In this document: positions 1-23,179 of the stretch, in pieces
Layout: each line of letters starts with the position of its first letter
Position numbering within the stretch: the stretch's first letter is position 1
Assembly: GCA_964558375.1 (NCBI GenBank)
Contig: CAZLCD010000001.1
Span: 209,160-273,159, forward strand
Direction of reading: 5' to 3'
Length of the DNA: 64,000 nt
Source of the DNA: an uncultured Candidatus Saccharibacteria bacterium
Lineage (GTDB): Bacteria > Patescibacteriota > Minisyncoccia > Phycocordibacterales > PALSA-1337
Program-made: the position numbers and the translations under genes
Notes under the pieces: generated by a model
Told to the model about the DNA's origin: nothing
The model's database searches: none
What the model saw: only the letters and a program-made list of their open reading frames with translations

Positions 1-3000
1 CCGGTTTTCAGGTAATTGATATCTCAAATCCCGTTTCCCCAACTCTTGTTGGAACATATGCTTCTGCTACTAATGCTGAAGGGATCTATGTTTCTGGTAA
101 GTACGCCTATGTAACCAATTCTACAGATTTTGTTATATTAGATATCTCAAATCCTGCATCTCCATCGCTTGTAGGGACATATGTCAGTCCTTCGGACGCT
201 ATCGATGTCTACGTATCCGGCAAATATGCATATGTTGCAGATGATGCTGGTTTACTCATTATTAATATCTCAAATCCTGCATCTCCATCGCTTGTAGGTA
301 CACAAACGACAAATGCTTACTCTGTCTTTGTTTCAGGTAAATATGCATATACAGCTTCTGGTTCATCTGGTCTAAAAATCCTCGACATCAACGGTATCGA
401 AACCCCATCCCTATACGCAGGTAACATAGAGACAAACGTACTAAACGCTACAGAAAACATAATCGCAGGAGGAGATATATATGCTCAAGGAGGTCTAAAT
501 GTCGGTATCTCCGGTATCTTCTCTAGAGGTACTATCTCTGCATTTATAGCTTCTACTACTCAGACTAATCCAGTAGTTGCTACATTTATGGGAGGTAGTG
601 TAGGAATCGGCACCACCACTCCATACTCAAAACTTTCTGTCTGGGGATCTTCGAATGGCACAGCTCGACTTTTTGAACTTACCAATTCTGCTTCCACAAC
701 CCTAGCTTCTTTCTTAGAAAACGGAACAGGTTATTTCCTAGGAAATATCGGAGTTGGTACAACATCTCCTTATGCAAAGCTATCTGTTGTCGGCCAAGCT
801 GTAGCTGCATACTTCACTGCAACCACTTCTACCGCTTCCACTTTCCCTTATGCTTCGACCACAGCTATCACTTCTAGTGGTTCAGCATATTTCGGAACTT
901 CATCTGGTGGAGTATTGATCGGCACTACTACAGCAACTTCAACTTCCAAACTCACACTTGCCGGTGGAAACTTTTTACATACAGCAGTGGGGAATCCGAC
1001 ATTGAAGGGATCATATAATACAACAGGTGATGCTCATGATGTGTTCGTCTCTGGTAAATATACTTATATTGCTGATGGTGGCTCAGGACTTCATATCATA
1101 GACACTTCCAATCCTGGATCACCGGTTCTTATAGGAACTTACAATACTTCTAGTTTTGCTTACGGTGTTAAAGTGTCCGGCAAATATGCCTATGTTGCGG
1201 ATTATAGTTCTGGTCTTAATATCATCGATGTTTCAAACCCAACAGCACCTACTCTTGTAGGAATATATAATACAAGTGATCATGCATATGATGTGTATGT
1301 TTCCGGAAAATACGCTTACGTTGCGGATGATGGAACAGGTCTTAATATTATTGATATATCAGATCCAACAACACCAACTCTTGTCGGAACATATAATACA
1401 TCTTCTGGTTCCCAGGGTGTGCAAGTTTCCGGAAAATATGCTTACGTTGCGGATAGTTCATCAGGTCTCAATATTATAGACATATCAAATCCAACAGCAC
1501 CTTCTTTGGTTGGTATATACGATACTGGAGATGCTTTTGACGTTTATGTTTCTGGTAAGTACGCATATGTGGCAGATTTTCTTGGTTTGAAAATTGTAAA
1601 TATTTCCAACCCTGCTTCACCTTCACTTGTGAGTACATATAGTCCTATTACTATACCCGGTGTAGTTGATGGTATTTATGTTGCTGGTAACTACGCTTAT
1701 ATAACAGTTGATGATGAAAGTTCGGATTCAGGTCTAGTAATTGTAAATATCTCAAATCCTGCATCACCATCACTAGTTGGAACTTATAATGTTGCTGGTG
1801 CATCAGATTTTCTAACTCATGACGATGTTTTTGTTTCCGGAAAGTATGCATACATGGCAAATGGAGCTGCCGGCCTCCAAATAATAGACATCAACGGTAT
1901 CGAAACCCCATCCCTATACGCAGGTAATATCGAAACCAATGTACTCAACGCTACAGAAAACATAATCGCAGGAGGAGACATATATGCTCAAGGAGGTCTC
2001 AATGTAGGAATCTCAGGTATCTTCTCTAGAGGAACTATCTCTGCATTCATCGCTTCTACTACTCAGACAAATCCTGTAGTTGCTACATTCATGGGAGGTA
2101 ATGTGGGTATCGGAACAACATCTCCATGGCGTACTCTTTCTGTAACTGGTTCATCTGATCTTGGTAACAATGCTCTAGCTGGATACTTCACTGCAACCAC
2201 CACAGCTACCTCAACCTTCGGAGGCTCTCTAGCTGTAACAGAAACCAATGCCACTTCAACTTTTGCAGGAGGTATAGACCTCTCTGATGGATGCTTCGCT
2301 ATTGATGGAGTGTGTCTAAGTGTAGGAGGAGGAAGTTACGGAGACACAAACGTTAACTCCTACATCCACGCTTCTAGTACAATCCCAAAGACATATACTG
2401 CGAATACTTTTACAGCAGATCAAACATTTAGTGGATCAATCGTAGCAAATGGAGCTATATATGCAAATAATCTATATGGAGGAAATGCTGCTGTGACTTG
2501 GAACGGAGCAACAGCTCTACCGATAAACCAATTTAACTTTAATTTTGGTAATAATGCTCTTGCATATACATCAGGAAATGGAGGAGTGTTTAAAATTGCT
2601 GCTGCTTATAATCAGACTGGTACCGCTGCCAACACTGATCTTTTAATAAGTAGAACTGAAACAGCGATAGGATCTGGATTGCAATATTTAATCGATGCAC
2701 AAGTGGGTAGCGCAAGTAAATTCAATGTAACTAATACAGGTCAAGGATATTTCCTAGGTAACCTAGGAATCGGAACAAGCTCCCCATATGCGAAACTTTC
2801 TGTTGTCGGTCCGGTAGTTGCTCAATATTTCCATGCTACCTCTACAACAGCGACAAGTACTATCGGTGGCTCACTTGTTGTCGGTGGCCCAAGAGTCTTT
2901 TCTGGCTATTCTGTAACTGGCGGTCTTGGAAATATCGCGGCTGGTGATGCTCAAGCTGGTACAGCTATCAATGCGTCTGGTCAAGGTGCTTTTGCTTACG

Positions 3001-6000
3001 GTCAGACGACCTCATCACTTGGAGGAACCTCACTCATTCTTTCATCAGGTCAGGGTAGTTTGGCGGGTGGTCGGACAAGTGGTATTTTCGGATCAGCAAC
3101 CACCACATCATCTGGAAATGGTTCAATCGCTTGGGGGTATGCTGAGTCTGCAGGTCCAGGTACTTCCGCCAACCTAACCTCTTCCGGCACAGGTTCTATT
3201 GTTCTTGGTGCAGCCTCTAACAAGAATCTAACCTCTTCTGCTATAGGTTCATTTGCTGGTGGTTATGCAAGTGCTGGTAATATTCTTTCTTCTGCAGATG
3301 GTGCGTTTGCATTCGGAGATAACATCACAGCTTCTGCTGCACTTTCCACTGCCTTCGGTTCTGGGTTTACAAACAACACTGCAAATAGCTTTATGGTTGG
3401 TTATGGTTCAACTCCAACTCTTACAGTAGATGCTACAAATGTAGGTATCGGTACCACATCTCCATATGCAAAACTTTCTGTTGTTGGCCAAGCTGTCGCT
3501 GCATACTTCACCGCTACTACTTCCACCGCTTCTACTTTCCCTTACGCTTCTACTACAGCTATTACTTCTTCAGGTTCTGCGTATTTTGGAACTTCATCTG
3601 GTGGAGTATTGATCGGTACAACCACAGCCAACTCAACCTCAAAACTCACCCTAGCAGGAGGAAACTTCATACACACAGCTGTCGGTGACCCGACATTGAA
3701 GGGTACATACAACACACCCGGCACTTCTGGTGGGGTATATGTCTCTGGTAAATATGCTTATGTAGCAGACGGTACATCTCTTCAAATTATTGATATATCA
3801 AACCCAGCATCACCAACTTCTATAGGATCATACGCATCTTCTGGATCAATATTTTCTGTATCCGTCTCTGGTAAATATGCCTATGTTACAGTATCTGATT
3901 TACTAGGATCTTTTTTAATTATTGATGTTTCAAATCCAGCATTACCAACACTTGTTGGTTCAGCAATTACTAGTAGTGATGTATCTTATTCCTATGTTTC
4001 TGGAAAGTATGCATATGTTTCTGATAATCTTGCTGGACTAAAGATTTTTGACATTTCAGATCCTAGATCACCAAGTCTTCTTTCAACATATGCTCCAGGT
4101 ACTGAGAATACGGGTGTATATGTTTCTGGTAAATATGCATACATTGCAGATAGTTCATCTGGTATTCAAATCCTAGATATTTCAAATCCAGTCTCACCGT
4201 CTTTGATGGGAACATATAATACTAGTGGCGCAGCTCTCGGTATATATGTTTCTGGTAAATACGCATATGTTGCAGATGGTAGCTCAGGTCTACAGATTGT
4301 AAATATCTCTAACCCAGCCTCACCGGCTCTTGTTGGAACATATAATACTACTGGAACCGCCTATGATGTTTACGTCTCTGGAAGATACGCATATGTTGCT
4401 GATGATACCTCAGGCGTCCATGTTATCGATGTCCTAAACCCAGCTTCGCCATCTCTTGTAGGAACATACAATACATCAGGCAATGCTGCTGGAATATATG
4501 TCTCTGGTAAATACGCATATGTAGCAGATAGTGCCTCCGGCCTCCAAATCCTCGACATCAACGGTATCGAAACCCCATCCCTATACGCAGGTAATATCGA
4601 AACCAACGTCCTCAATGCCACAGAAAACATAATCGCAGGAGGAGACATCTATGCTCAAGGAGGATTAAATGTCGGTATCTCTGGTATCTTCTCTAGAGGA
4701 ACTATCTCAGCTTTTATAGCTTCTACAACTCAGACAAATCCTGTGGTTGCTACATTTATGGGGGGGAATGTGGGAATTGGAACTACCTCTCCATGGCGTA
4801 GACTATCTGTAAATGGTTCATCAGATCTTGGTATAAATGCTCTAGCTGGATACTTCACCGCTACTACTTCCACTGCTTCTACTTTCCCTTATGCTTCGAC
4901 CACAGCCATCACTTCTTCAGGTTCTGCTTATTTTGCTACTACTGGTGGGAATGTGGGAATTGGAACAACTTCACCTTATGCAAAACTTTCTGTTGTCGGT
5001 CCGGTAGTTGCAGAATATTTTAATGCTACAAGTACAAATGCGACTTCTACTTTCCTGGGAGGGGTCGCTATAGGTGGACCATTTAGAGGACAAGTAAGTC
5101 CATACACAAGAGTAGAATTTTCTGATCCTACTAGTGGTTATTATTCTGATTGGAGTTTTGATCTAGCTGGAGGCGGATCAGGTGCTATTAATTTTGGTTC
5201 ATCTGCTGGTACATATGCCTCTAGAAGTGTGAGAACACTTACCCCTTCTGTTATAGGTACATATCTATATAACACACTAGGATCAATGATCAGTCGTACT
5301 TGGGACGGAACAGCTTTTAAAGAATCATCAGCTATTTCATTTGAATACGATGCAGCTTTAGGTACCAATGATGTTCCTGGAGCTATATCTTTCTATACAT
5401 CCGCAGATGGTACTGCTACCCCTCGAAACCGTATGATGATTCGTAGTAGTGGAAACGTCGGTATCGGTACAACTTCTCCTTATGCAATACTCACTACCTG
5501 GGGAACTACTACAGGCAAAATCTTTGAAGCTGTAACTTCTGCTTCTACTACAGCTCTCTCTATCTCTGCTACAGGTTTTGCAACTACTACTGTATCTGGT
5601 CTAACAATTGCAGGATCTGCTACCTCTACATCCAATGTAGGCTTCAATCTTTCCGGAGGATGTTTTGCGGTCAATGGTACTTGTGTAGGAGGATCTTCTT
5701 CTGGTTCAAGTTTTGCATACCCATTTACCCCAACAACTAACTATAGTTCAACCAATCAAGCAACAACAGGTATAGCATGGTTCCAGAATGGTATAAATGC
5801 ATCTTCAACATCACATTTTGTAAATGCTTCTACTACCATGATATCTGTAAATGACTTACTCATCAGTAGTCCAGTGGCTAACAGTTTGTTTGTAGGTACA
5901 GATGCTGGTATGGGTGCAACTAGTGCTCTCAACTCACACTTCATTGGATATAATTCTGGTAATAGCGCTACCAATGCTTATGAAGCTAACTTTATCGGAA

Positions 6001-8432
6001 TAAGTGCTGGAAATGGTGCAACTAATGCTAACAATTCAAACTTCATTGGAATGATTGCTGGTCAACATGCAACTGATGCCTCCTACTCAAACTTCTTTGG
6101 GTGGGGTGCGGGTGAAGCGTCATTTAATTCATCTTATTCAAACTTCATGGGACAGAGCGCTGGAGCTTATGCGACATACGCAGAGTATTCAAACTTCATT
6201 GGAGCTTATGCAGGTTACTCTGCAACCAATGCCTCCACTTCAAACTTCATTGGGTATAATGCTGGTACCGGTGCAGCAGATGCAAACAACTCTATATTCT
6301 TGGGTTATCAATCTGGATACTATGACACAGTCAACAATATAGGTACTGGCAAATCTTCTATCCTAATCGGAGACTATACATCTACTGGTGGTTTTTCAAA
6401 CAGTATCGCTATCGGTCAAGGAACAGCAAATAATGCAGCGCGACAAATAAACCTTGGTAATGTTCTCTATGCTACTGGTATTTATAATGGCATTACTCCA
6501 TCATCAATTCCTACATCAGGTAATATAGGAATCGGTACTTCATCTCCATACGCAAAACTATCCGTTGTTGGTCCAGTAGTTGCAGAATATTTCCATGCGA
6601 CATCTACAACTGCGACTTCTACAATAGCTGGAGGTCTTGATGTAAACAGTGGAGGACTACTCTATGATTTCAATACCGGTATTACATCTATCGGAGCGAT
6701 AGAAACTGGCGCATTCAACTTTGATACAGACGCAGGTCAGGTGAACTGGGTCAATCTTCCAGTTACTTCATCTGCGGTATCTGGTCTTGTACAGAGTTAC
6801 ACTGCAAGCATTGCAGATATCTCTCTACTTACTTTATATGCTGAAGCTACAGGAGTAGATAATACTGTGAGAAAAACTGCAGTCGGTATTGGTTCTACTA
6901 CTCCGATGGCTCTTCTAACAATACAAAACAATGCCTTCACAGCCTCAAGTACTTATGACTTCTTTATAGCTTCTACAACTGCGGCGTACGCAACTACTAC
7001 ACACTTTGCTATCACCAATACTGGAAATGTGGGAGTAGCGACATCGACTCCATGGGGACTCTTGTCTGTTGAGCAGGGAACAGAAGGTGCTTCATTCGTT
7101 GTTTCAAATACTGGAAGTACCACTCCGTCATTTATAGTTAGTGGAGTCAATGGTAATGGACATGTCGGAGTAGGAACTTCTACTCCTTGGAAAACTCTTT
7201 CAGTTACCGGAACTGTGGCTATCGATGGACTTACAGCTGCAGGTGCTTCTGGAGATGCTTTATGTCTAGGCGCTGGAAAAGAAGTTCAAGTAAATACAGG
7301 AGCACAGACATGTACTGTATCTTCTGCAAGATTCAAGAATAATATTGCAAACCTTGATATAGGTCTTGAGGCATTGAATAAATTGAATCCAGTTTCATTT
7401 ATCTACAATGGCTCAACTGAAAACAGAATAGGATTCATCGCAGAAGAAGTAGGTGCTGTAGACAAGAGACTTATCTTCACTGAAGCAGATGGAGTAACAC
7501 CAAGAGGTGTACGTTATGAAGACATGGTGGCGGTACTTGCAAAGGCGATCAAAGAACAACAAGTTCAGATCAATGCTTTCCAATCTGCTACTTCTACTTC
7601 AAGCAACACACATTCAACTAGTACGATAATTGTTAATAACAATACAAATTCTTCAAATTCATCATCTAACCTTTCTGAAGAAGCGATAGCGTCTATCACT
7701 TCAAATGCTAGTGCAGCCGCTCTCTCTGGTCTTACTGCTGTTGTTGCTGACCTATTTGCTTCATCGACTGTCTTAAATAATCTTGCTTCAAGTACAGGAG
7801 CTTTGGTCGCTGGCAATGTCGCTGACACTTTGGCAAGCTCTACTCCTTCATTTATCTCTAGAGTTGCTTCTGCTGTGATCGAGGGTCTAAAGAGTTCTAC
7901 AGAATGGGTCTTTGCAAAGATCACTGCAACTCTTGCGATCTTCGATAGAGTAGAGACAAAGACTCTATGTATAGGTGAGACTTGTGTAAACGAAGATCAG
8001 CTTAAGGCATTACTTGCTCAAGCGGGCGTTCCAGCAGCAACAGCTACAACAACGGCAACTACTACACCTGTAGTTGTTGGCGATGAAGAAGGAAATGAGG
8101 TTAAAGATTTTAAAATAAAAGTAGATAATACAGAAGATACTACAGTAGATAAAATCTCTACAACAACAGTTGCAAATACAGATACTTCTACTACAACAAC
8201 TACTACTATTCTCGTAGAAGAACCTTTGGGTAACCCGATAATAATTGAAGAGCCTAAGGTGGAGGTATCTCCCGCAGTGGAAGTTAAAGAAGATATAAAA
8301 GAAGAAGTAACTCCAAAAGAGGAAGTTAAAGAAGAAGTTAAAGAGGATGTAAAGGAAGAGAAGGTAGAGGAGAAAAAGGAAGAAGTGTCAGAGCCAGAAG
8401 AATCAAAGCCAGCAGAGGAGAAGACAGAGTAA
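1..8432 (+). CDS. giant secreted/surface protein, 5'-partial; the frame opens at nt 3 with no stop before the track ORF at 588. Contains LVIVD-type beta-propeller repeats, tail-fibre-like Gly-rich repeats, a C-terminal peptidase S74-like intramolecular chaperone domain and a Thr/Glu/Lys-rich tail.
   Basis: Manual translation of nt 3-587 in the frame of the 588..8432 ORF gives 'GFQVIDISNPVSPTLVGTY...SGKYAYV...' with no stop, so the gene starts upstream of the window. Over 25 repeats of 'SGKYAYVAD..GL.IIDISNP..P.LVGTY' (LVIVD-like) are present. 'GIGTTSPYAKLSVVG' motifs match phage tail-fibre proteins. The C-terminal 'SSARFKNNIANLD...PVSFIYNG...IGFIAEEV...VRYEDMVAVLAKAIKE' matches the S74 chaperone-of-endosialidase signature. 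Confidence 0.8.
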   Translation, partial: GFQVIDISNPVSPTLVGTYASATNAEGIYVSGKYAYVTNSTDFVILDISNPASPSLVGTYVSPSDAIDVYVSGKYAYVADDAGLLIINISNPASPSLVGTQTTNAYSVFVSGKYAYTASGSSGLKILDINGIETPSLYAGNIETNVLNATENIIAGGDIYAQGGLNVGISGIFSRGTISAFIASTTQTNPVVATFMGGSVGIGTTTPYSKLSVWGSSNGTARLFELTNSASTTLASFLENGTGYFLGNIGVGTTSPYAKLSVVGQAVAAYFTATTSTASTFPYASTTAITSSGSAYFGTSSGGVLIGTTTATSTSKLTLAGGNFLHTAVGNPTLKGSYNTTGDAHDVFVSGKYTYIADGGSGLHIIDTSNPGSPVLIGTYNTSSFAYGVKVSGKYAYVADYSSGLNIIDVSNPTAPTLVGIYNTSDHAYDVYVSGKYAYVADDGTGLNIIDISDPTTPTLVGTYNTSSGSQGVQVSGKYAYVADSSSGLNIIDISNPTAPSLVGIYDTGDAFDVYVSGKYAYVADFLGLKIVNISNPASPSLVSTYSPITIPGVVDGIYVAGNYAYITVDDESSDSGLVIVNISNPASPSLVGTYNVAGASDFLTHDDVFVSGKYAYMANGAAGLQIIDINGIETPSLYAGNIETNVLNATENIIAGGDIYAQGGLNVGISGIFSRGTISAFIASTTQTNPVVATFMGGNVGIGTTSPWRTLSVTGSSDLGNNALAGYFTATTTATSTFGGSLAVTETNATSTFAGGIDLSDGCFAIDGVCLSVGGGSYGDTNVNSYIHASSTIPKTYTANTFTADQTFSGSIVANGAIYANNLYGGNAAVTWNGATALPINQFNFNFGNNALAYTSGNGGVFKIAAAYNQTGTAANTDLLISRTETAIGSGLQYLIDAQVGSASKFNVTNTGQGYFLGNLGIGTSSPYAKLSVVGPVVAQYFHATSTTATSTIGGSLVVGGPRVFSGYSVTGGLGNIAAGDAQAGTAINASGQGAFAYGQTTSSLGGTSLILSSGQGSLAGGRTSGIFGSATTTSSGNGSIAWGYAESAGPGTSANLTSSGTGSIVLGAASNKNLTSSAIGSFAGGYASAGNILSSADGAFAFGDNITASAALSTAFGSGFTNNTANSFMVGYGSTPTLTVDATNVGIGTTSPYAKLSVVGQAVAAYFTATTSTASTFPYASTTAITSSGSAYFGTSSGGVLIGTTTANSTSKLTLAGGNFIHTAVGDPTLKGTYNTPGTSGGVYVSGKYAYVADGTSLQIIDISNPASPTSIGSYASSGSIFSVSVSGKYAYVTVSDLLGSFLIIDVSNPALPTLVGSAITSSDVSYSYVSGKYAYVSDNLAGLKIFDISDPRSPSLLSTYAPGTENTGVYVSGKYAYIADSSSGIQILDISNPVSPSLMGTYNTSGAALGIYVSGKYAYVADGSSGLQIVNISNPASPALVGTYNTTGTAYDVYVSGRYAYVADDTSGVHVIDVLNPASPSLVGTYNTSGNAAGIYVSGKYAYVADSASGLQILDINGIETPSLYAGNIETNVLNATENIIAGGDIYAQGGLNVGISGIFSRGTISAFIASTTQTNPVVATFMGGNVGIGTTSPWRRLSVNGSSDLGINALAGYFTATTSTASTFPYASTTAITSSGSAYFATTGGNVGIGTTSPYAKLSVVGPVVAEYFNATSTNATSTFLGGVAIGGPFRGQVSPYTRVEFSDPTSGYYSDWSFDLAGGGSGAINFGSSAGTYASRSVRTLTPSVIGTYLYNTLGSMISRTWDGTAFKESSAISFEYDAALGTNDVPGAISFYTSADGTATPRNRMMIRSSGNVGIGTTSPYAILTTWGTTTGKIFEAVTSASTTALSISATGFATTTVSGLTIAGSATSTSNVGFNLSGGCFAVNGTCVGGSSSGSSFAYPFTPTTNYSSTNQATTGIAWFQNGINASSTSHFVNASTTMISVNDLLISSPVANSLFVGTDAGMGATSALNSHFIGYNSGNSATNAYEANFIGISAGNGATNANNSNFIGMIAGQHATDASYSNFFGWGAGEASFNSSYSNFMGQSAGAYATYAEYSNFIGAYAGYSATNASTSNFIGYNAGTGAADANNSIFLGYQSGYYDTVNNIGTGKSSILIGDYTSTGGFSNSIAIGQGTANNAARQINLGNVLYATGIYNGITPSSIPTSGNIGIGTSSPYAKLSVVGPVVAEYFHATSTTATSTIAGGLDVNSGGLLYDFNTGITSIGAIETGAFNFDTDAGQVNWVNLPVTSSAVSGLVQSYTASIADISLLTLYAEATGVDNTVRKTAVGIGSTTPMALLTIQNNAFTASSTYDFFIASTTAAYATTTHFAITNTGNVGVATSTPWGLLSVEQGTEGASFVVSNTGSTTPSFIVSGVNGNGHVGVGTSTPWKTLSVTGTVAIDGLTAAGASGDALCLGAGKEVQVNTGAQTCTVSSARFKNNIANLDIGLEALNKLNPVSFIYNGSTENRIGFIAEEVGAVDKRLIFTEADGVTPRGVRYEDMVAVLAKAIKEQQVQINAFQSATSTSSNTHSTSTIIVNNNTNSSNSSSNLSEEAIASITSNASAAALSGLTAVVADLFASSTVLNNLASSTGALVAGNVADTLASSTPSFISRVASAVIEGLKSSTEWVFAKITATLAIFDRVETKTLCIGETCVNEDQLKALLAQAGVPAATATTTATTTPVVVGDEEGNEVKDFKIKVDNTEDTTVDKISTTTVANTDTSTTTTTTILVEEPLGNPIIIEEPKVEVSPAVEVKEDIKEEVTPKEEVKEEVKEDVKEEKVEEKKEEVSEPEESKPAEEKTE
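381..630 (+). repeat. intragenic module A, copy 1 ('ILDINGIETPSLYAGNIETNVLNATENIIAGGDIYAQGGLNVGISGIFSRGTISAFIASTTQTNPVVATFMGG.VGIGTT')
   Basis: About 250 nt that recurs almost identically at 1885-2130 and 4551-4795, as read directly from the sequence. Confidence 0.85.
741..1000 (+). repeat. intragenic block B ('GIGTTSPYAKLSVVGQAVAAYFTATTSTASTFPYASTTAITSSGSAYFGTSSGGVLIGTTTA.STSKLTLAGGNF'), copy 1. Copy 2 lies at 3436-3690 and a partial copy at about 4840-4940.
   Basis: Near-identical protein segments and highly similar DNA at the two locations. Confidence 0.8.
1885..2130 (+). repeat. intragenic module A, copy 2
   Basis: Near-identical nucleotide and protein repeat of 381-630. Confidence 0.85.
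4551..4795 (+). repeat. intragenic module A, copy 3
   Basis: Near-identical nucleotide and protein repeat of 381-630. Confidence 0.85.
7300..7585 (+). other. peptidase S74-like intramolecular chaperone (auto-processing) domain inside the giant protein
   Basis: 'CTVSSARFKNNIANLDIGLEALNKLNPVSFIYNGSTENRIGFIAEEVGAVDKRLIFTEADGVTPRGVRYEDMVAVLAKAIKEQQ'. The Ser-x-x-R-x-K-x-N-I start and the GFIAEEV / VRYEDMV blocks are characteristic of the endosialidase and tail-fibre C-terminal chaperone domain. Confidence 0.75.
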
Positions 8433-8450: not shown

Positions 8451-11400
8451 ATGATAAACCATCAAGTCAAAAGTTCATATGCCATAGCAATAATCTCCAT
8501 TTTATTTTTCTGTGCATTATTTGTAGTCAATTTTGCAAGGAAAGAGATAGCTAAAATAAACTTTGTAGCTTATATACCGGAAGCTCGAACACTTCTAGCA
8601 CAAGCAGGGGGAAGTCTGAGTGATGGACTAGTGGGGCATTGGACTTTTGATGAGGGAAGTGGAACTACAGCGGGGGATTCTAGTGGGGCGGGGAATAATG
8701 GAACTCTGGTGAATTTCCCTTCAGATGGTTCTGGATGGGTTGATGGGTATTTTGGAAAGGCGCTAAAATTTAATGGAACAAACACTTATGTAAATCTACC
8801 AAAAATTTTGGCCAATAAAACCCAATTTACAATATCAATGAGGGCAAGGTTTGATGGTGCGACAGATTTTCAGGGAGCACTTATGGGTCACTCAAATGGT
8901 GGATTCTACATTCGAAAAGCTGGTTCATGTAATAGTATCATCACTTGGGTAGTAAATAGCTTGAGTACAAATGTTGGAGCCTCTCTCAATGGATCTCCTT
9001 CAAGTGGTATTGCCTGTGATAGTTGGCAAATGCATACATTTACCATGCAAACAAATGGAACTTTTTCATATTATATAGATGGAGAATTTATAAAATCTGC
9101 AACCCATCCATCATGGGATTCTTTCAATGCTTCACATGACAATAGGATTGGTCAATATGCCGGGTCTGGTTATGTATGGAATGGTCTCATAGATGATACT
9201 AGAATATATGATCGTGCTCTATCTGCTGTAGAAATTTCCGAACTTTATAATCAAGGTACACCAAATGAAGTAGTAGAAGTGTCTACAGCGGATAGAGAAG
9301 CACCAAGTATACCAGCGAATCTAGTTGCTACTTCTGTGTCAGCAACACAAAACAATCTTTCATGGGATGCCTCTACAGATAATGTCGGTGTGACTGGATA
9401 CAAGGTATATAGAGGAACAACCGATATCGGTAATACCACAAACCCTACTTTTCAAGATACAAATGTTCCCTCAGACAACTCTAGCGTCTATACTACTTCT
9501 ATATACACCGTACTTGCATATGATGCTCAGAATAATAGATCGAACAAATCCGCATCAGCTTCCGCTACTTTTCAGTCAGCCAATACAGAGAATCCAGCTA
9601 ATGTTGCTCAAAATTTAAATGGACTAACTCTAGGAACTAATCTGAGGATAGATAATCTTGGAGCGCCCTTGAAAGGTAATACTCAAGAGCATCAAGTAAT
9701 GTATAAAACAAATGATGGTCATAGACATTTACAAATGTACTATGATACTTTTGGTGCATCACCTATCGATGTTGTAGATATTGATCTCGAAAACGCTAAA
9801 GTTGTAAAATCTTCTCTCGAAAGAAATGTAGGGAGAGTCGGTACTCGTTGTCATGTGTTCTATCCAGCAAATAACAAAATGTATATAGGTAGTAGTGATC
9901 CAGGAAGCTTTAGTGAATTTGATCCTACTACCGGAGCGACCAAGTATATAAGTGCAGTAAAGTACAAAGGTGCCTATCATTGTGAAATAGGTGATGATGG
10001 ATGGATATATATAGGGCAAATAACTGCAGGTGTAGTTAAGGGGGCAGGTCTCGAAAGATACAATCCTACGACTGGTGTATGGCAAGATCTAGGAGTCATC
10101 GACCCTGCTTTTAATGGTGCTTTGCAATATGCTTACACATTAGGTGCTGACAATCGATATGTATATATTAGTCTCGGTCAACTTCCATGGTATCTAGCTG
10201 TATATGATACTCAAGCTACTTCAAATAAGATCAAGATTTACTTTAAAGAGAATGGAGATACTAATAGTAATATTTCAAAGGGTGCAGATGGCAAATGGTA
10301 TTATACAAAATATCATTTAGGAGAGACTCCGTATAAAAGAATGTATAAATTTGAAAATGGCATTCCAGTAGAAGTAAGTAGTACGCCAGTTTTGGATCAA
10401 TGGTATCAGCAGAGCAATGTGATATCTGACAAGTCAGCATTTAAGCAAGTTTTTAATACTGAAGTAAATTTTGATAAGGCAAATTCAAATTCAGAGAACG
10501 GGGGCACGGTAGAGATAAGTTGGAAGACAGATTCTGGATCTTGGCAATCTGCTACAGTGAATGGTCTCAGTCAGGTAGCAAGAACTATCAAGCGCCTGTA
10601 TCCATGGCCAGGCAGAGAAGATAAATTTCTGGGATGGGCTTCTGAATATGGATTAGTGTTTTTGTATGATGCTTCATCAAAAGATATTCAGTCATTAGGG
10701 TATCCAACAAGAAGTCTTTATGACGCTGTTTTTGTTGGTCCGATTATCTATATATCCGGATACACAGCCATTACTATGAAGTATGATCCAAGCAAACCTT
10801 GGACACTTTCAGCTTCGACCCTAGATCCGAAGTCGACTTCTGTTAATCCATACATCTTTTATGGTCAATATGGTAAGTATCATTACTATTCAACTCTAGG
10901 TTCAGATGGAATGCTATATATTGCCACCCACCATGAGCGAGGTTCAGTGGGAGGAGAGATTGCTTGGTACAACCTGAGTTCTGGCGCATCGGCTAGTCTT
11001 CGAGAACCTTTTCTGGACTATGATGTAAGTGATCTAAAAAGCGCTCTCAATGGTACCAAGATTGTCTACTCCAGTAGTAAAGATAAATTATTTATTTTCG
11101 ATGTTGCCACAAAAAGAATTGAAAGGGAAATCACTCCTATACCTGGCAATATGGAAATTGATAAAATTTTTGAAACTGAACCCGGGATTATCTTCGGTAT
11201 ATATGACACAAAATACTTCAAAGCAAATATTCAAACAGGAGAAATTATATACATAAAAGATCTTGGTGGCAGAGCTTTCCCTGGGATTCCTGCTTATGAT
11301 CGCAGACTTGTAAAAGGTCCTGACGGGTATGCTTGGCTATTTATCGATGATAAATTATCAAGAATCAATCCAGTGGACGGTACAATTCAAAAAATAATGA

Positions 11401-12011
11401 CAGCCCCAGTATCTAGCTTTATTTTTAATGGTAATGATTTGTATTTCTATGGAGGTACCACTATAAGTAGGATCAGAAATATTTTAATTGGAGAGATTAC
11501 AAATACTCCATCCATCTCTCTACCTGTAACAAACCCAGATCTTTTAAATACAGAAGATAGCCTTCCTGTAAACGCCTCCTGCTCCACCCGTCTAAACAGA
11601 TGCTCAACTGGTTCAGTCTCCGGTAGAACCTCCAACACTACTCATAACTTATGGACTTGTAATGGACTCAATGGTGGAACTAATGCTTCTTGCTCTATAT
11701 TAAAAACAGCACAAGATCCAGTAAATCCTATAGTCCCTGTAGATCCTTTACCTCTCCAAGCTCCTTTAACCCCAACCTACACTCCAGCATACACACCAAC
11801 TCATACTCCAACTACATACGTATACAAGAAACCAGCAACCCCTGCACCCAAAGTTATATCTCCCACCCCAGACCTCCCACCCTCCCCATCCTTCGAACCT
11901 CTAGACTTTATACCCACCGACTATATTCAGATATTACTCGACTTGATCAAACAATTCTTCATTGATCTTGTGGAGAGGATTAAGAGGGGAGTAGATAGAA
12001 TAATTGGATAG
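8451..12011 (+). CDS. secreted multi-domain protein: signal/TM, LamG (Laminin_G_3-like) lectin domain, FN3 domain, beta-propeller-like core, 4-Cys module, conserved C-terminal tail domain
   Basis: N-terminal hydrophobic segment, then 'LVGHWTFDEGSGTTAGDSSG..NGTL' through 'IDDTRIYDRALSAVEISELYNQG' (LamG). 'APSIPANLVATSVSATQNNLSWDAS..GVTGYKVYRG' is FN3. 'CSTRLNRCSTGSVSGRTSNTTHNLWTCNGLNGGTNASCS' is the Cys module. The C-terminus reads '...PDLPPSPSFEPLDFIPTDYIQILLDLIKQFFIDLVERIKRGVDRIIG'. Confidence 0.85.
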   Translation: MINHQVKSSYAIAIISILFFCALFVVNFARKEIAKINFVAYIPEARTLLAQAGGSLSDGLVGHWTFDEGSGTTAGDSSGAGNNGTLVNFPSDGSGWVDGYFGKALKFNGTNTYVNLPKILANKTQFTISMRARFDGATDFQGALMGHSNGGFYIRKAGSCNSIITWVVNSLSTNVGASLNGSPSSGIACDSWQMHTFTMQTNGTFSYYIDGEFIKSATHPSWDSFNASHDNRIGQYAGSGYVWNGLIDDTRIYDRALSAVEISELYNQGTPNEVVEVSTADREAPSIPANLVATSVSATQNNLSWDASTDNVGVTGYKVYRGTTDIGNTTNPTFQDTNVPSDNSSVYTTSIYTVLAYDAQNNRSNKSASASATFQSANTENPANVAQNLNGLTLGTNLRIDNLGAPLKGNTQEHQVMYKTNDGHRHLQMYYDTFGASPIDVVDIDLENAKVVKSSLERNVGRVGTRCHVFYPANNKMYIGSSDPGSFSEFDPTTGATKYISAVKYKGAYHCEIGDDGWIYIGQITAGVVKGAGLERYNPTTGVWQDLGVIDPAFNGALQYAYTLGADNRYVYISLGQLPWYLAVYDTQATSNKIKIYFKENGDTNSNISKGADGKWYYTKYHLGETPYKRMYKFENGIPVEVSSTPVLDQWYQQSNVISDKSAFKQVFNTEVNFDKANSNSENGGTVEISWKTDSGSWQSATVNGLSQVARTIKRLYPWPGREDKFLGWASEYGLVFLYDASSKDIQSLGYPTRSLYDAVFVGPIIYISGYTAITMKYDPSKPWTLSASTLDPKSTSVNPYIFYGQYGKYHYYSTLGSDGMLYIATHHERGSVGGEIAWYNLSSGASASLREPFLDYDVSDLKSALNGTKIVYSSSKDKLFIFDVATKRIEREITPIPGNMEIDKIFETEPGIIFGIYDTKYFKANIQTGEIIYIKDLGGRAFPGIPAYDRRLVKGPDGYAWLFIDDKLSRINPVDGTIQKIMTAPVSSFIFNGNDLYFYGGTTISRIRNILIGEITNTPSISLPVTNPDLLNTEDSLPVNASCSTRLNRCSTGSVSGRTSNTTHNLWTCNGLNGGTNASCSILKTAQDPVNPIVPVDPLPLQAPLTPTYTPAYTPTHTPTTYVYKKPATPAPKVISPTPDLPPSPSFEPLDFIPTDYIQILLDLIKQFFIDLVERIKRGVDRIIG

Positions 12012-12025
12012 ATAATCTGATATAA
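11757..12025 (+). repeat. family 3' tail repeat, copy 1: Pro/Thr linker 'TPTYTPAYTPTHTPT.Y.YKKP', the 'PDLPPSPSFEPLDFIPTDYIQILLDLIKQFF..' domain, and the shared downstream 'tagataatctgatataataaa'
   Basis: DNA is about 85% identical over roughly 255 nt with 17307-17580 and 22507-22765. A diverged copy lies at 56650-56898. Copies 1 and 2 also share about 20 nt of intergenic sequence after the stop codon. Confidence 0.85.
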
Positions 12026-12039
12026 TAAAATGCAAATGT

Positions 12040-17562: not shown

Positions 17563-17580
17563 ATAATCTGATATAATAAA
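17307..17580 (+). repeat. family 3' tail repeat, copy 2
   Basis: See copy 1. The identity is visible directly, for example in 'cccagacctcccaccctccccatccttcgaacctctagacttcatacccaccgactatat'. Confidence 0.85.
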
Positions 17581-17584
17581 GTGA

Positions 17585-19756: not shown

Positions 19757-19768
19757 TCTAAATGAATT

Positions 19769-22873: not shown

Positions 22874-23179
22874 ATGGCAAAGAAGTTATATGTAGGAGGT
22901 ATTTCATACGGCACAAGCGAAGACGCTCTTAAGGCGCATTTCGCAGCAGCTGGAACAGTTGAATCAGCTAGTATTATCATGGACAAGATGACAGGCCGAT
23001 CAAAAGGTTTTGGATTCGTCCAGATGACAGACGATGCTGGTGCAGACAATGCAATCAACATGTTCAATGGTAAGCCACTTGACGGAAGAAACCTTACCGT
23101 CAACGAAGCACGACCTATGGAACCTCGCGCTCCTAGAAAGGATTTCAATCGAGGTGGCGAAAGTCGCGGAAATTGGTAA
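22874..23179 (+). CDS. RRM-type RNA-binding protein (RNP-1 'KGFGFVQM', Gly/Arg-rich C-terminus)
   Basis: 'KLYVGGISYGTSEDALKAHFAAAGTVESASIIMDKMTGRSKGFGFVQM' shows the RNP-2 and RNP-1 motifs of small bacterial Rbp proteins. Confidence 0.8.
   Translation: MAKKLYVGGISYGTSEDALKAHFAAAGTVESASIIMDKMTGRSKGFGFVQMTDDAGADNAINMFNGKPLDGRNLTVNEARPMEPRAPRKDFNRGGESRGNW

What the first reader, a model, noticed from the sequence alone, without database searches (positions are those of the whole stretch)
1..8432. Giant surface protein (>2800 aa) combining LVIVD beta-propeller repeats, tail-fibre-like repeats and an S74 chaperone domain
A single open frame combines more than 25 LVIVD-type propeller blades, 'GIGTTSPYAKLSV' repeats typical of phage tail fibres and receptor-binding proteins, and an unmistakable endosialidase-type intramolecular chaperone / self-cleaving domain ('SSARFKNNIANLD...GFIAEEV...VRYEDMV'). 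Tail-fibre chaperone domains are phage hallmarks. Finding one on a cellular giant surface protein heading a lectin-protein operon suggests a tail-fibre-like adhesin that processes and trimerises itself, possibly for host attachment by an episymbiont.
Basis: partly seen in the sequence, partly recalled or inferred. Interest (0 to 1): 0.7.

Follow-up and report, generated by a model that had tools for sequence, protein, structure and literature searches.

The report
Giant self-cleaving surface fibre of Patescibacteria
This is the last 2,809 residues of a 3,622-residue cell-surface fibre from a probable ultrasmall (Patescibacteria/CPR) bacterium, built like the phage-tail-fibre-like "MAT" adhesins that Bdellovibrio uses to recognise prey, so it is a good candidate host-attachment molecule but a variant of a known kind, not a new one.

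Summary
Frame 3 is open from nt 3 to the stop at 8430-8432 (2,809 codons). Pfam finds LVIVD (E 3.7e-198) and Peptidase_S74 (36 bits, cutoff 22). The motif G[IV]GT(T/S)(S/T)P occurs 11 times. Four Laminin_G_3 lectin genes follow on the same strand.

Corrections: the window holds 17 complete blades plus one partial, not more than 25. The full protein (P0104, 100% identical) has 3,622 aa and three 7-bladed propellers, and starts with a signal peptide.

It is a distant, oversized relative of the Bdellovibrio mosaic adhesive trimer (MAT) fibres:
- The domain after the membrane anchor matches NCBIfam Bdello_MAT_N (E 4e-10, below cutoff).
- The shaft units match the Bd2133 crystal sequence (profile E 1e-22).
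- The S74 Ser2440/Lys2445 dyad is invariant in 70 homologues.
- The S74 region models at pLDDT 91-97 and matches the MyRF and endosialidase chaperone folds.

Predicted cleavage releases a 370-aa, 39-kDa fragment.

New here:
- propeller-plus-neck cassettes spliced into the shaft;
- a roughly 280-aa extension after S74, typical of Patescibacteria and rare in phages;
- a fibre-lectin gene neighbourhood conserved in 10 of 23 Patescibacteria loci.

Trimerisation, cleavage and host binding are inferred, not shown.

The parts
3..8432 (+). C-terminal 2,809 codons plus stop of the fibre gene. The full product is 3,622 aa; its first 813 aa lie upstream of the window.
   Evidence: Translation has no stop until 8430. 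P0104 is 100% identical over 100% of the query.
3..386 (+). Last 3.5 blades of LVIVD propeller 1 (window aa 1-128). The other blades are upstream of the window.
   Evidence: Blade markers at aa 31, 72 and 111. There are 7 blades at P0104 aa 676-924.
384..608 (+). Neck 1 after propeller 1 (aa 128-202): 'DINGIETPSLYAGNIE...VVATFMGG', running into a capping-loop motif.
   Evidence: The same neck follows the last blade in 41 giant homologues.
609..1013 (+). Shaft segment A (aa 203-337), with capping-loop motifs at aa 201 and 250 and the lead-in to propeller 2.
   Evidence: DNA repeat families D5/D6.
1014..1889 (+). LVIVD propeller 2, 7 blades (aa 338-629).
   Evidence: Blade markers at aa 350, 392, 434, 476, 517, 561 and 612. 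Best Pfam LVIVD stretch at aa 471-508.
1887..2111 (+). Neck 2 (aa 629-703).
   Evidence: The 69-aa core is 100% identical in protein to necks 1 and 3, with 26-31 synonymous codon differences.
2112..3707 (+). Shaft segment B (aa 704-1235). It has capping-loop motifs at aa 702, 922 and 1148, a C-x6-C motif (C764/C771), and a Gly/Ser/Ala-rich degenerate repeat region at aa 975-1130. No Pfam or PDB sequence hit.
3708..4556 (+). LVIVD propeller 3, 7 blades (aa 1236-1518).
   Evidence: Blade markers at aa 1248-1501. Beta_propel PF09826 at aa 1253-1383.
4554..4778 (+). Neck 3 (aa 1518-1592).
5349..5684 (+). Shaft unit directly homologous to the beta-helix/capping-loop units of Bdellovibrio MAT fibre Bd2133 (aa 1783-1894: '...ISFYTSADGTATPRNRMMIRSSGNVGIGTTSPYA...').
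   Evidence: phmmer of aa 1590-1900 against PDB finds 8ond_A at E 8.1e-6. The family profile A1 finds 8ond_A at E 1.2e-22.
5934..6302 (+). About seven tandem 17-aa repeats 'SNFIGxxAGxxATxAxx' (aa 1978-2100). Fold unknown.
   Evidence: No Pfam or PDB sequence hit.
6528..7319 (+). Distal shaft and mature tip (aa 2176-2439). It has capping-loop motifs at aa 2176, 2344 and 2389, and the conserved cysteine pair C2421/C2437 just before the cleavage site ('...ALCLGAGKEVQVNTGAQTCTV').
   Evidence: The two Cys columns are 90% or more conserved in 70 homologues.
7320..7589 (+). S74 intramolecular chaperone / autoprotease domain (aa 2440-2529). The predicted nucleophile is Ser2440 (nt 7320-7322) and the base is Lys2445 (nt 7335-7337). 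The predicted cut lies between V2439 and S2440.
   Evidence: Pfam PF13884 above cutoff. S and K are invariant. pLDDT 91-97. Foldseek to 7dc3 and 3gw6. 124 viral S74 models at E<=1e-3. Phage tblastn hits at 29-41% identity.
7590..8429 (+). Post-S74 extension (aa 2530-2809). It starts with a Ser/Asn-rich linker and predicted helices. A conserved module follows at aa 2616-2675 (nt 7848-8027), including the Cys hairpin 'LCIGETCVNEDQLKALL' (C2656/C2661). The segment ends in a Thr-rich and then Glu/Lys-rich acidic tail.
   Evidence: (pLDDT 72-85 for the hairpin and helix).
8451..12011 (+). Downstream gene 1: signal peptide + Laminin_G_3 lectin domain, 1,186 aa.
12040..17562 (+). Downstream gene 2: signal peptide + Laminin_G_3 + InlB B-repeat-like domain, 1,840 aa.
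17585..19756 (+). Downstream gene 3: signal peptide + three Laminin_G_3 domains, 723 aa.
   Evidence: It is the best conserved partner in related loci.
19769..22762 (+). Downstream gene 4: signal peptide + Laminin_G_3 + fn3, 997 aa.

Best explanation
The ORF encodes the distal three quarters of a membrane-anchored, homotrimeric surface fibre of the MAT (mosaic adhesive trimer) / phage-tail-fibre type, from a bacterium that is probably a member of Patescibacteria.

Proposed mechanism, with the status of each step:
1. The protein is exported by an N-terminal signal peptide. It is held at the membrane by hydrophobic segments at aa 353-404 of the full protein. A MAT_N-like beta-sandwich sits next to the cell. 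The sequence features are shown; the topology is inferred.
2. Three chains fold from the C-terminus. The S74 domain trimerises and templates the interdigitated beta-helical shaft, whose repeated 'GNVGIGTTSPYAKLSV' elements are the capping loops seen in MAT and S74 fibre crystal structures. This is inferred from homology.
3. Once the trimer is formed, Ser2440 and Lys2445 cut the chain between V2439 and S2440. This releases a 370-aa, 39-kDa C-terminal piece and exposes a conserved, disulfide-braced tip. This is inferred; the residues are invariant.
4. Three 7-bladed LVIVD propellers per chain, nine per trimer, are spliced into the shaft. Each is a cassette of lead-in, propeller and a strictly conserved 69-aa neck that feeds back into the shaft. 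Because the tip is conserved while these inserted modules vary between relatives, ligand specificity probably lies in the side modules rather than in the tip. This is inferred.
5. The fibre is probably co-transcribed with four secreted lectin proteins. Together they probably bind glycans on a host cell or another surface. The operon structure and conserved synteny are shown; the function is inferred.
For: Domain evidence:
- LVIVD E 3.7e-198 and S74 at 36 bits, above the cutoff of 22.
- S2440, K2445, G2477 and A2480 are invariant in 70 homologues.
- The AF2 model has pLDDT 91-97 over aa 2439-2529.
- Top PDB folds are MyRF ICA 7dc3 (probability 1.0, TM 0.59 on the target) and endosialidase chaperone 3gw6.
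- 124 viral S74/ICA tail-fibre models match at E<=1e-3.

Link to MAT fibres:
- The family profile hits the MAT crystal sequences: Bd2133 8ond at E 1.2e-22, and also 8ojn, 8oml, 8ol4 and 8on4. It hits phage tail fibres 8jov at 2e-14 and 6f45 at 1e-10, and MyRF at 1e-6.
- A single shaft segment hits 8ond at E 8e-6.
- The N-terminal domain hits NCBIfam Bdello_MAT_N at E 4.3e-10. 16 of 21 homologous N-domains hit it, and no other family is hit.
- In the MAT paper, 13 of 21 Bdellovibrio MATs end in S74. Bd3182 cleaves itself at S782. The fibres are on the predator surface, and one binds prey glycans (PMC10769870).

Export and anchoring:
- There is a signal peptide, and the only hydrophobic segments lie near the N-terminus.
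- All 10 Cys fall in 5 local pairs.

Cassettes and context:
- The neck is 100% identical in protein across the three copies despite 26-31 synonymous codon changes.
- The neck follows the last blade in 41 giant homologues.
- The context is cellular: TGT, aldolase, L25, RF, S2, EF-Ts, PheRS, GyrB, ThrRS, DnaE, RNase HII, NusB, RNase III, SMC, RNase R, TrmD.
- Lectin genes lie directly downstream of the S74 fibre gene in 10 of 23 Patescibacteria loci and in none of 5 proteobacterial loci.
Against: - Nothing was tested experimentally. Trimerisation, cleavage, surface display and any ligand are all inferences.
- The Bdello_MAT_N match is below NCBI's cutoff (39.6 against 60 bits) and covers profile positions 13-79 of 162.
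- The monomer AF2 model of the shaft is poor (pLDDT about 50), so the beta-helix is supported only by sequence homology.
- About 60% of the protein has no Pfam or PDB sequence match.
- S74 is not terminal. 280 aa follow it, and their role is unexplained.
- How a 7-bladed propeller is accommodated three times in a threefold-intertwined shaft was not modelled.
- The organism was never named. Patescibacteria is inferred from relatives.
Confidence: 0.72

Rival explanations
1. MyRF-like release switch. S74 is used as a maturation switch, not as a disposable folding aid. It separates two functional products: the fibre, and a conserved C-terminal polypeptide of 200-440 aa (helices, Cys hairpin, low-complexity tail). 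That polypeptide would have its own role, for example capping the tip until contact, docking the co-encoded lectins, or tethering the distal end to the envelope.
For: - The Ser-to-stop length is 198-437 aa in 22 Patescibacteria loci. It is 117-146 aa in proteobacterial loci and 89-217 aa, median 95.5, in 77 viral loci.
- A conserved module at aa 2616-2675 is shared with many relatives and modelled at pLDDT 72-85.
- MyRF shows that S74 can act as a release switch between two functional halves (PMC3742443, listed).
Against: - The extension has no transmembrane segment or known anchor motif.
- Much of it is low complexity.
- The module also occurs behind non-S74 termini (42 of 86 non-fragment hits), so it is not tied to cleavage.
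- No function can be assigned.
Confidence: 0.12
2. A surface fibre that is not a host adhesin. It is an envelope scaffold, a matrix or biofilm component, or a polysaccharide-capturing structure for nutrient scavenging. The propellers and lectins bind environmental glycans rather than a host cell.
For: - LVIVD and Laminin_G_3 domains occur in many free-living bacteria and archaea, for example Pirellulales, cyanobacteria and Methanolobus among the homologues.
- The lifestyle of this organism is unknown.
- The conserved tip argues against a fast-evolving host-recognition site.
Against: - The characterised homologues (MAT fibres, phage fibres) are cell-surface recognition devices.
- All cultivated Patescibacteria are episymbionts (abstract of PMC12206443).
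- The modules vary between relatives, carrying LVIVD, DUF5011 or FG-GAP. This fits diversifying recognition.
Confidence: 0.13
3. A phage or prophage tail fibre, or tailocin fibre, that happens to lie in the chromosome.
For: - The S74 domain and capping-loop repeats are shared with phage tail fibres.
- One Bro-N gene lies at 47408-48232.
Against: - No capsid, tail, terminase, portal or baseplate gene occurs in the 55 kb downstream. The neighbours are lectins and housekeeping genes.
- A signal peptide, a membrane anchor and a MAT_N-like domain are features of exported cellular fibres.
- Identity to the best viral S74 is 48% or less, against 50-79% among Patescibacteria genomes.
- The PHROGs hits are only to families of unknown function.
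Confidence: 0.02
4. An artefact: repeat-induced misassembly or a run-together of several genes, so that LVIVD and S74 are not really in one protein.
For: - The gene is highly repetitive.
- The N-terminal 385 aa of P0104 are followed by a second signal-peptide-like segment. Relatives begin at that point.
Against: - The repeat copies differ at 13-20% of DNA positions, mostly synonymously, so they would not collapse or chimerise easily.
- There is no stop in 8,427 nt.
- At least 12 independent giant proteins from other assemblies also carry both PF08309 and PF13884.
- The possible fusion concerns only the part upstream of the window.
Confidence: 0.02

Closest known systems
Bdellovibrio bacteriovorus MAT (mosaic adhesive trimer) fibres, S74 subgroup, e.g. 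Bd3182 (Caulton et al. 2024, PMC10769870; NCBIfam NF053851)
   Same: - Both are cell-encoded and exported.
- Both have a beta-sandwich N-domain right after the signal/anchor sequence (E 4e-10 to Bdello_MAT_N).
- Both have a shaft of beta-helix units with the 'GNVGIGTxxPxxxLxV' capping loop (profile E 1e-22 to Bd2133).
- Both have a C-terminal S74 with a Ser-x4-Lys dyad.
- Both come from an organism that lives on other cells; for this window that is inferred.
   Different: - This protein has 3,622 aa against about 1,000.
- Three LVIVD propeller cassettes are inserted in the shaft.
- The motif is SSxRFK instead of SDxxxK.
- 280 aa follow S74.
- The tip is conserved rather than variable.
- The anchor is in a monoderm-type envelope, with an extra 385-aa N-terminal segment.
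- It is linked to lectin genes.
- The N-domain match is below the family cutoff.
Phage tailspike and tail-fibre proteins with a C-terminal intramolecular chaperone (K1F endosialidase endoNF 3GW6; T5 pb1 4UW8; Pfam PF13884 / MEROPS S74)
   Same: - The S74 fold and dyad are shared.
- The logic of a trimeric beta-helix stalk is shared.
- By my recollection, not tested here, endoNF also combines one beta-propeller per chain with a trimeric stalk.
   Different: - This protein is not part of a virion.
- The propellers are of LVIVD type, not sialidase type.
- The chaperone fragment is 370 aa, against a median of 95.5 aa in 77 viral loci.
MYRF / MrfA membrane-bound transcription factors (ICA domain, 7DC3)
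   Same: - 7dc3 is the best structural match to the S74 region and also a profile hit.
- In both, S74 is internal, with a substantial polypeptide after it.
   Different: - MYRF is eukaryotic and intracellular, with a DNA-binding domain.
- MYRF has a transmembrane helix after the ICA domain. No such helix exists here.
LVIVD-repeat beta-propeller surface proteins (PF08309; TIGR04312 choice-of-anchor B)
   Same: - There are 18 Pfam-scored repeats with a 42-aa period.
- The blades group in sevens.
   Different: - Here the propellers are cassettes inside a fibre.
- Each is followed by a conserved neck that is also found in 41 giant, mostly Patescibacteria, homologues.

Membership tests
[quoted passage not shown] | Significant match to the family model above its curated threshold | tested here: met
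   PF13884 at aa 2440-2486, E 8.6e-9, 36.0 bits against a cutoff of 22.
[quoted passage not shown] | Catalytic Ser-Lys dyad spaced S-x4-K at the start of the domain | tested here: met
   S2440 and K2445 ('SSARFK') are invariant in 70 homologues and present in all 27 genome loci with a readable motif. The second residue is S, not the D of the SDxxxK consensus quoted in PMC10769870.
[quoted passage not shown] | Fold of the solved chaperone domains (3GW6, 7DC3) | tested here: met
   The model has pLDDT 91-97 over aa 2439-2529. The top Foldseek PDB hits are 7dc3 (probability 1.0, target TM 0.59, E 6e-3) and then 3gw6 chains with weak E-values. 124 viral S74 models match at E<=1e-3.
[quoted passage not shown] | Domain forms the extreme C-terminus (about 90-150 aa from Ser to stop) | tested here: not met
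   There are 370 aa from Ser2440 to the stop. Viral loci have a median of 95.5 aa and a range of 89-217. Patescibacteria loci have 198-437 aa.
[quoted passage not shown] | Trimerisation-dependent autoproteolysis | not testable with these tools
   This needs expression of the wild-type fragment and the S2440A mutant.
MAT (mosaic adhesive trimer) fibre superfamily | Conserved beta-rich N-terminal domain of about 130 aa directly after the signal peptide | tested here: inconclusive
   The domain lies outside the window, at P0104 aa ~409-510. NF053851 Bdello_MAT_N gives E 4.3e-10 and 39.6 bits, below the cutoff of 60, over profile positions 13-79 of 162. 16 of 21 homologous domains hit it and nothing else. 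The model is a beta-sandwich with pLDDT above 90 and only generic PDB neighbours at Z<=6. That agrees with the paper's statement that the domain has no PDB homologue.
MAT (mosaic adhesive trimer) fibre superfamily | Shaft of beta-helix/prism units carrying the capping-loop motif | tested here: met
   The motif occurs 11 times. The family profile hits Bd2133 8ond at 1.2e-22 and four other MAT crystal sequences. The single segment aa 1590-1900 hits 8ond at 8.1e-6. This is sequence homology only; the beta-helix itself was not modelled with confidence.
MAT (mosaic adhesive trimer) fibre superfamily | C-terminus is either S74 or an alternative adhesive tip domain | tested here: met
   S74 is present, although it is followed by an extra 280 aa.
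MAT (mosaic adhesive trimer) fibre superfamily | Homotrimer displayed on the cell surface that binds the surface of another cell | not testable with these tools
   This needs EM, localisation and glycan binding.
LVIVD repeat beta-propeller (PF08309) | Tandem ~42-aa LVIVD repeats in numbers that close a propeller | tested here: met
   18 scored repeats at E 3.7e-198. The full protein has 7+7+7 blades. The propeller fold itself was not modelled here.
Phage virion tail fibre / prophage | Located in a block of phage structural and morphogenesis genes | tested here: not met
   All ORFs of 100 aa or more in the remaining 55 kb were scanned. They are housekeeping and surface proteins only, plus one Bro-N gene. 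The upstream side is not visible.
Trimeric autotransporter adhesin (YadA-like) | YadA head/stalk repeats and a C-terminal beta-barrel anchor | tested here: not met
   No Pfam or PDB sequence hit for the Gly/Ser/Ala-rich repeat regions, even at E up to 1-10. There is no C-terminal anchor.

The most novel reading that the evidence does not exclude
Patescibacteria have turned the phage S74 chaperone into an internal maturation switch. Cleavage at Ser2440 does more than discard a folding aid: it liberates a conserved 200-440-aa C-terminal protein (helical stalk, Cys hairpin, acidic tail). That protein would either keep the fibre tip capped or recruit the co-encoded lectin proteins. The fibre plus its four lectins would then form one modular, multi-protein host-capture organelle. 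The propeller cassettes would act as exchangeable specificity modules.
Probability: 0.12. Interest if true: 0.75.

Novelty: new variant of a known kind. Interest (0 to 1): 0.5.

Why it matters
How ultrasmall Patescibacteria find and hold on to their hosts is largely open. Type IV pili and the recently described Pam pili are the only structures with experimental support in the papers I found.

This locus points to a third, widespread class: MAT/tail-fibre-like, S74-processed fibres. They are often giant and carry swappable modules (LVIVD propellers, DUF5011, FG-GAP). They are often followed by lectin genes.

The locus extends the MAT concept from Gram-negative predators to a probable monoderm-type episymbiont. 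It also gives concrete residues to mutate (S2440, K2445) and defined domains to express for host-range or glycan-binding tests.

I found no paper in the held library that links MAT fibres, S74 or LVIVD with Patescibacteria. The database annotation 'tail fiber domain-containing protein' already exists, so this is an extension rather than a discovery of principle.

Tried and rejected
Searches that found nothing or could not run:
- Exact look-ups of the neighbouring lectin protein and of P0104 in the contig index found nothing. The upstream DNA could therefore not be read.
- An exact 52-nt pattern from the window start is absent from the GTDB representative genomes.
The taxon stays inferred.
- Alignment A1 was too diverse for the locus search. 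I replaced it with the tighter A2. That scan then used only one peptide pattern, so the 28 loci are a biased sample.
- afdb50 was unavailable, so the N-domain could not be compared with AlphaFold models of Bdellovibrio MATs.
- A full-length phmmer search against PDB gave nothing. Only sub-segments and profiles did.
- Pfam at E<=1 and PDB at E<=10 found nothing for the lead-in/neck regions, the Gly/Ser/Ala-rich repeats (aa 930-1245) or the 17-aa repeats (aa 1880-2190). My guess that these are YadA-head-like repeats is therefore unsupported.

Method problems:
- My first regex for S74 missed canonical 'SSDERLK' domains. I replaced it with an HMM, which is still specific to the CPR subtype. The figure '44 of 86 with S74 upstream' is therefore a lower bound.
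- Short queries to the homologue search returned only proteins up to about 1.75 times the query length. The giant relatives appeared only with the full-length query.

Leads not pursued:
- The weak PamT (CPR pilus tip pilin) match of the extra N-terminal 385 aa scores 26 bits against a cutoff of 240. It covers mostly the signal peptide region. I treat it as a lead only.

Explanations rejected: prophage and misassembly (see rivals).


Full report
**1. What is in the sequence**

Frame 3 of the + strand is open from nt 3 to a TAA at 8430-8432. That gives 2,809 codons, cut at the 5' end by the window edge. The ORF lister shows it from the first ATG, at nt 588, only because of how it defines ORFs.

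Pfam finds three families in the translation:
- LVIVD, E 3.7e-198, 18 scored repeats.
- Beta_propel, E 2.8e-12.
- Peptidase_S74 at aa 2440-2486, E 8.6e-9, 36 bits against a curated cutoff of 22.

A pattern scan shows 17 complete blades of about 42 aa. They are grouped as 3 (plus a partial blade at the window edge), 7 and 7. The motif G[IV][GA]T[TS][ST]P[YWM], as in 'GNVGIGTTSPYAKLSV', occurs 11 times.

Only the blade count ('more than 25') is too high.

**2. The full protein**

A search with the whole translation returned P0104. It has 3,622 aa, is 100% identical over 100% of the query, and comes from an NCBI contig of 330,369 bp. The window lacks the first 813 aa.

P0104 is laid out as follows:
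- a signal peptide, 'MKLNFIKNIIVVATVFSFVFSPVFSSLASA';
- about 330 aa of unassigned sequence;
- a strongly hydrophobic segment at aa 353-384, then 'SRRYKR';
- a second signal-peptide-like segment at aa 386-404;
- a conserved domain beginning 'AINKQINYQGKL...'.

Relatives such as P0133, P0144 and P0160 begin directly with a signal peptide followed by that domain. The first 385 aa may therefore be a fusion or a mis-called start. The DNA could not be obtained.

No other hydrophobic segment exists anywhere in the protein, including the C-terminus. The full protein has three 7-bladed propellers, 21 blades in all.

**3. Cellular, not viral**

The rest of the window encodes four Laminin_G_3 proteins, followed by housekeeping genes:
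- an RRM protein, a LOG-like protein, TGT, a PfkB kinase and class II aldolase;
- a DsbA-like thioredoxin and a pilin-like lectin;
- L25, a release factor, S2 and EF-Ts;
- PheRS, GyrB, ThrRS, DnaE, RNase HII and NusB;
- RNase III, SMC, RNase R and TrmD.

There is also one tRNA-Thr gene. A Bro-N protein at 47408-48232 is the only phage-flavoured gene.

The organism could not be named. Three results point to Patescibacteria:
- The closest relatives of the C-terminal region are named 'tail fiber domain-containing protein' from Patescibacteria or Paceibacterota.
- Many giant relatives are from Patescibacteria.
- 23 of 28 loci found in species-representative genomes are Patescibacteria.

This is an inference, and the last sample was drawn with a single peptide pattern.

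**4. The S74 domain looks functional**

In an alignment of 70 homologues the only invariant columns are S2440, K2445, G2477 and A2480. These are the S-x4-K dyad and the 'GFIAEE' core.

The AlphaFold2 model of aa 2160-2700 has pLDDT 91-97 across aa 2439-2529. Its best PDB matches are the MyRF ICA domain (7dc3, probability 1.0, TM 0.59 on the target) and the endosialidase chaperone (3gw6). The absolute E-values are weak, because the query is a long and mostly low-confidence model.

Against predicted viral structures there are 124 matches at E<=1e-3, led by phage S74/ICA tail-fibre proteins. tblastn against phage genomes hits only this domain, at 29-41% identity.

If cleavage occurs at the conserved serine, as in endosialidase, MyRF and Bd3182, the released fragment is 370 aa, 39.2 kDa, pI 4.5.

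**5. What family it belongs to**

The decisive comparison is with the mosaic adhesive trimer (MAT) fibres of Bdellovibrio bacteriovorus (PMC10769870). In that work:
- 21 'phage-related tail fibre' proteins sit on the predator surface.
- 13 of them end in S74 with an SDxxxK motif.
- Bd3182 cleaves itself at S782, and the S782A mutant does not.
- All 21 share a beta-rich N-terminal domain of about 130 aa after the signal peptide.
- The shafts are intertwined trimers with a recurring capping loop.
- One fibre binds prey glycans.

Three independent links to this family were found here.

(a) Shaft, profile search. A profile of the Patescibacteria C-terminal regions hits several PDB sequences:
- Bd2133 (8ond) at E 1.2e-22.
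- Four further MAT crystal sequences (8ojn, 8oml, 8ol4, 8on4).
- Phage tail fibres 8jov (2e-14) and 6f45 (1e-10).
- MyRF (1e-6).

The aligned elements are exactly the '...ERMRI..GNVGIGT..P...L.V' units.

(b) Shaft, single segment. One shaft segment of this protein (aa 1590-1900) hits 8ond on its own at E 8.1e-6.

(c) N-terminal domain.
- The domain of P0104 hits NCBIfam NF053851 'Bdello_MAT_N' at E 4.3e-10.
- 16 of 21 homologous domains from other giant proteins hit it, and nothing else is hit.
- The score, 39.6 bits, is below NCBI's cutoff of 60 for that Bdellovibrio-trained model. The match covers only profile positions 13-79 of 162.
- I therefore call this homology at superfamily level, not membership of the NCBI family.
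- The domain models as a confident beta-sandwich with only generic Ig-like neighbours in the PDB (Z<=6). This agrees with the paper's remark that the MAT N-domain has no PDB homologue.

**6. How it differs from known MAT fibres**

*(i) Size.* It has 3,622 aa against about 1,000.

*(ii) Propeller cassettes.*
- Each propeller is followed by the same 69-aa neck, 'INGIETPSLYAGNIE...VVATFMGG', which leads into a capping loop.
- The three necks are 100% identical in protein, yet differ at 26-31 codons synonymously. The DNA identity of these copies is 84-87%.
- This indicates strong purifying selection and argues against repeat collapse.
- The neck follows the last blade in 41 of the giant homologues retrieved, often three to six times per protein. 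'Propeller plus neck' is thus a reusable insertion module.
- At least 12 other giant proteins carry both LVIVD and S74.

*(iii) S74 is not terminal.*

| Loci | Ser-to-stop length |
|---|---|
| Patescibacteria | 198-437 aa |
| Proteobacteria | 117-146 aa |
| Viral (77 loci) | 89-217 aa, median 95.5 |

- The extension holds predicted helices and a conserved module at aa 2616-2675, ending in a Cys hairpin 'LCIGETCVNEDQLKALL'. The hairpin and its helix are modelled at pLDDT 72-85. A Thr-rich and then acidic tail follows.
- The module has 110 cluster representatives among 1.84 billion.
- It is not bound to S74. 44 of the 110 have a CPR-type S74 upstream, 24 are fragments, and 42 have another terminus upstream.

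*(iv) A conserved tip.* The tip just before the cut, 'GIGTTSPW.TLSV.GTV...GLT.......LCL....EV..N.G..TCTV', is conserved across relatives, including two cysteines. The inserted modules differ between relatives: LVIVD, DUF5011 or FG-GAP. I therefore place specificity in the side modules. This is an inference.

*(v) Cysteines.* All ten cysteines form five local pairs: three 'DGCFAIDGVCL' motifs, the tip pair and the hairpin. This fits an exported, disulfide-bonded protein. A DsbA-like gene is in the window.

**7. The lectin operon**

Four genes follow on the same strand at 8451-22762, with gaps of 18-28 nt. There is no convincing + strand terminator at the gene junctions. All four have signal peptides and Laminin_G_3 domains.

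The linkage is conserved. Laminin_G_3 genes lie directly downstream of the S74 fibre gene in 10 of 23 Patescibacteria loci and in none of the 5 proteobacterial loci. This supports a functional connection. Its nature is unknown.

**8. Mechanism and confidence**

I am fairly confident (about 0.8) that this is an exported, N-terminally anchored fibre of MAT / tail-fibre ancestry, which folds as a trimer from its S74 domain and cuts off a 39-kDa C-terminal piece. I am less confident (about 0.5) that its job is attachment to a host cell.

The rival readings are:
- a non-host adhesive or scaffolding role;
- a MyRF-like switch in which the C-terminal fragment has its own function.

Prophage and misassembly are essentially excluded for the part inside the window.

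**9. Novelty**

Cell-encoded S74 fibres in bacteria that live on other bacteria have been published (2024). The MAT paper's supplement lists S74-like examples from Omnitrophica, Micavibrio and others, but no Patescibacteria.

I found no paper in the held library connecting S74, MAT fibres or LVIVD with Patescibacteria. That library is incomplete.

The finding is therefore a new variant of a known kind. It is real, well supported by homology and useful as a candidate host-interaction organelle for an under-studied phylum, but it is not a new principle.

Noticed in passing
window 11850-12008, 17400-17559, 22600-22759, 56740-56895 (C-termini of genes 8451-12011, 12040-17562, 19769-22762, 53014-56898): Four large lectin-type surface proteins end in nearly the same ~50-aa motif, 'PDLPPSPSFEPLDFIPTDYIQILLDLIKQFFIDL.ERIKRGV.RIIG'. 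It could be a lineage-specific C-terminal sorting or anchoring signal. The fibre and the third lectin gene (17585-19756) lack it.
   Followed up: no
window 29182-30048 (+): A type IV pilin-like protein (N_methyl motif, 'FTLIELLVV') carries a Laminin_G_3 lectin domain. This would be a lectin-tipped pilin in the same genome region.
   Followed up: no
L002-L008, L010, L017, L023 (downstream of the S74 match in each): The synteny is conserved. Laminin_G_3 genes lie directly downstream of, and on the same strand as, the S74 fibre gene in 10 of 23 Patescibacteria loci and in none of 5 proteobacterial loci.
   Followed up: partly
P0104 aa 1-408 (upstream of the window): The full protein starts with a signal peptide, about 330 aa and a TM helix. 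A second signal-peptide-like segment follows. Relatives (P0133, P0144, P0160) start at that second signal. This suggests a gene fusion, a helical-hairpin anchor or a mis-called start. The first 93 aa match NCBIfam CPR_pilus_PamT weakly (E 3.8e-6, 26 bits against a cutoff of 240).
   Followed up: partly
window 7800-8072 (aa 2600-2690) and proteins P0232-P0331: The post-S74 module (amphipathic helix plus Cys hairpin) is a small family with 110 cluster representatives. It also sits behind non-S74 fibre ends, for example 'NGNLYV.GTLRS...DL.FANNF.FTEA...GDIC', and behind a canonical 'SSDERLK' S74 in P0144.
   Followed up: partly
window 5934-6302 and 2925-3390: Two Gly/Ser/Ala-rich repeat regions were seen: about seven 17-aa 'SNFIGxxAGxxATxAxx' units, and a degenerate region at aa 975-1130. 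Neither has a Pfam or PDB sequence match, so the fold is unknown.
   Followed up: partly
window 2292-2315, 5661-5684 (and P0104 aa 562-569): The motif 'GGIDLSDGCFAIDGVCL' (C-x6-C) occurs three times along the shaft. Together with the tip pair and the hairpin pair, all 10 cysteines are locally paired.
   Followed up: no
window 47408-48232 (+): A Bro-N domain protein lies between dnaE and rnhB. It is the only phage-associated domain in the window.
   Followed up: no
window 22874-23179 (+): A small RRM_1 RNA-binding protein (101 aa, E 9.8e-20) sits right after the lectin operon.
   Followed up: no
tool behaviour: The homologue search listed only proteins up to about 1.75 times the query length. 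Giant relatives and the self-match appeared only when the whole 2,809-aa translation was used as the query.
   Followed up: yes
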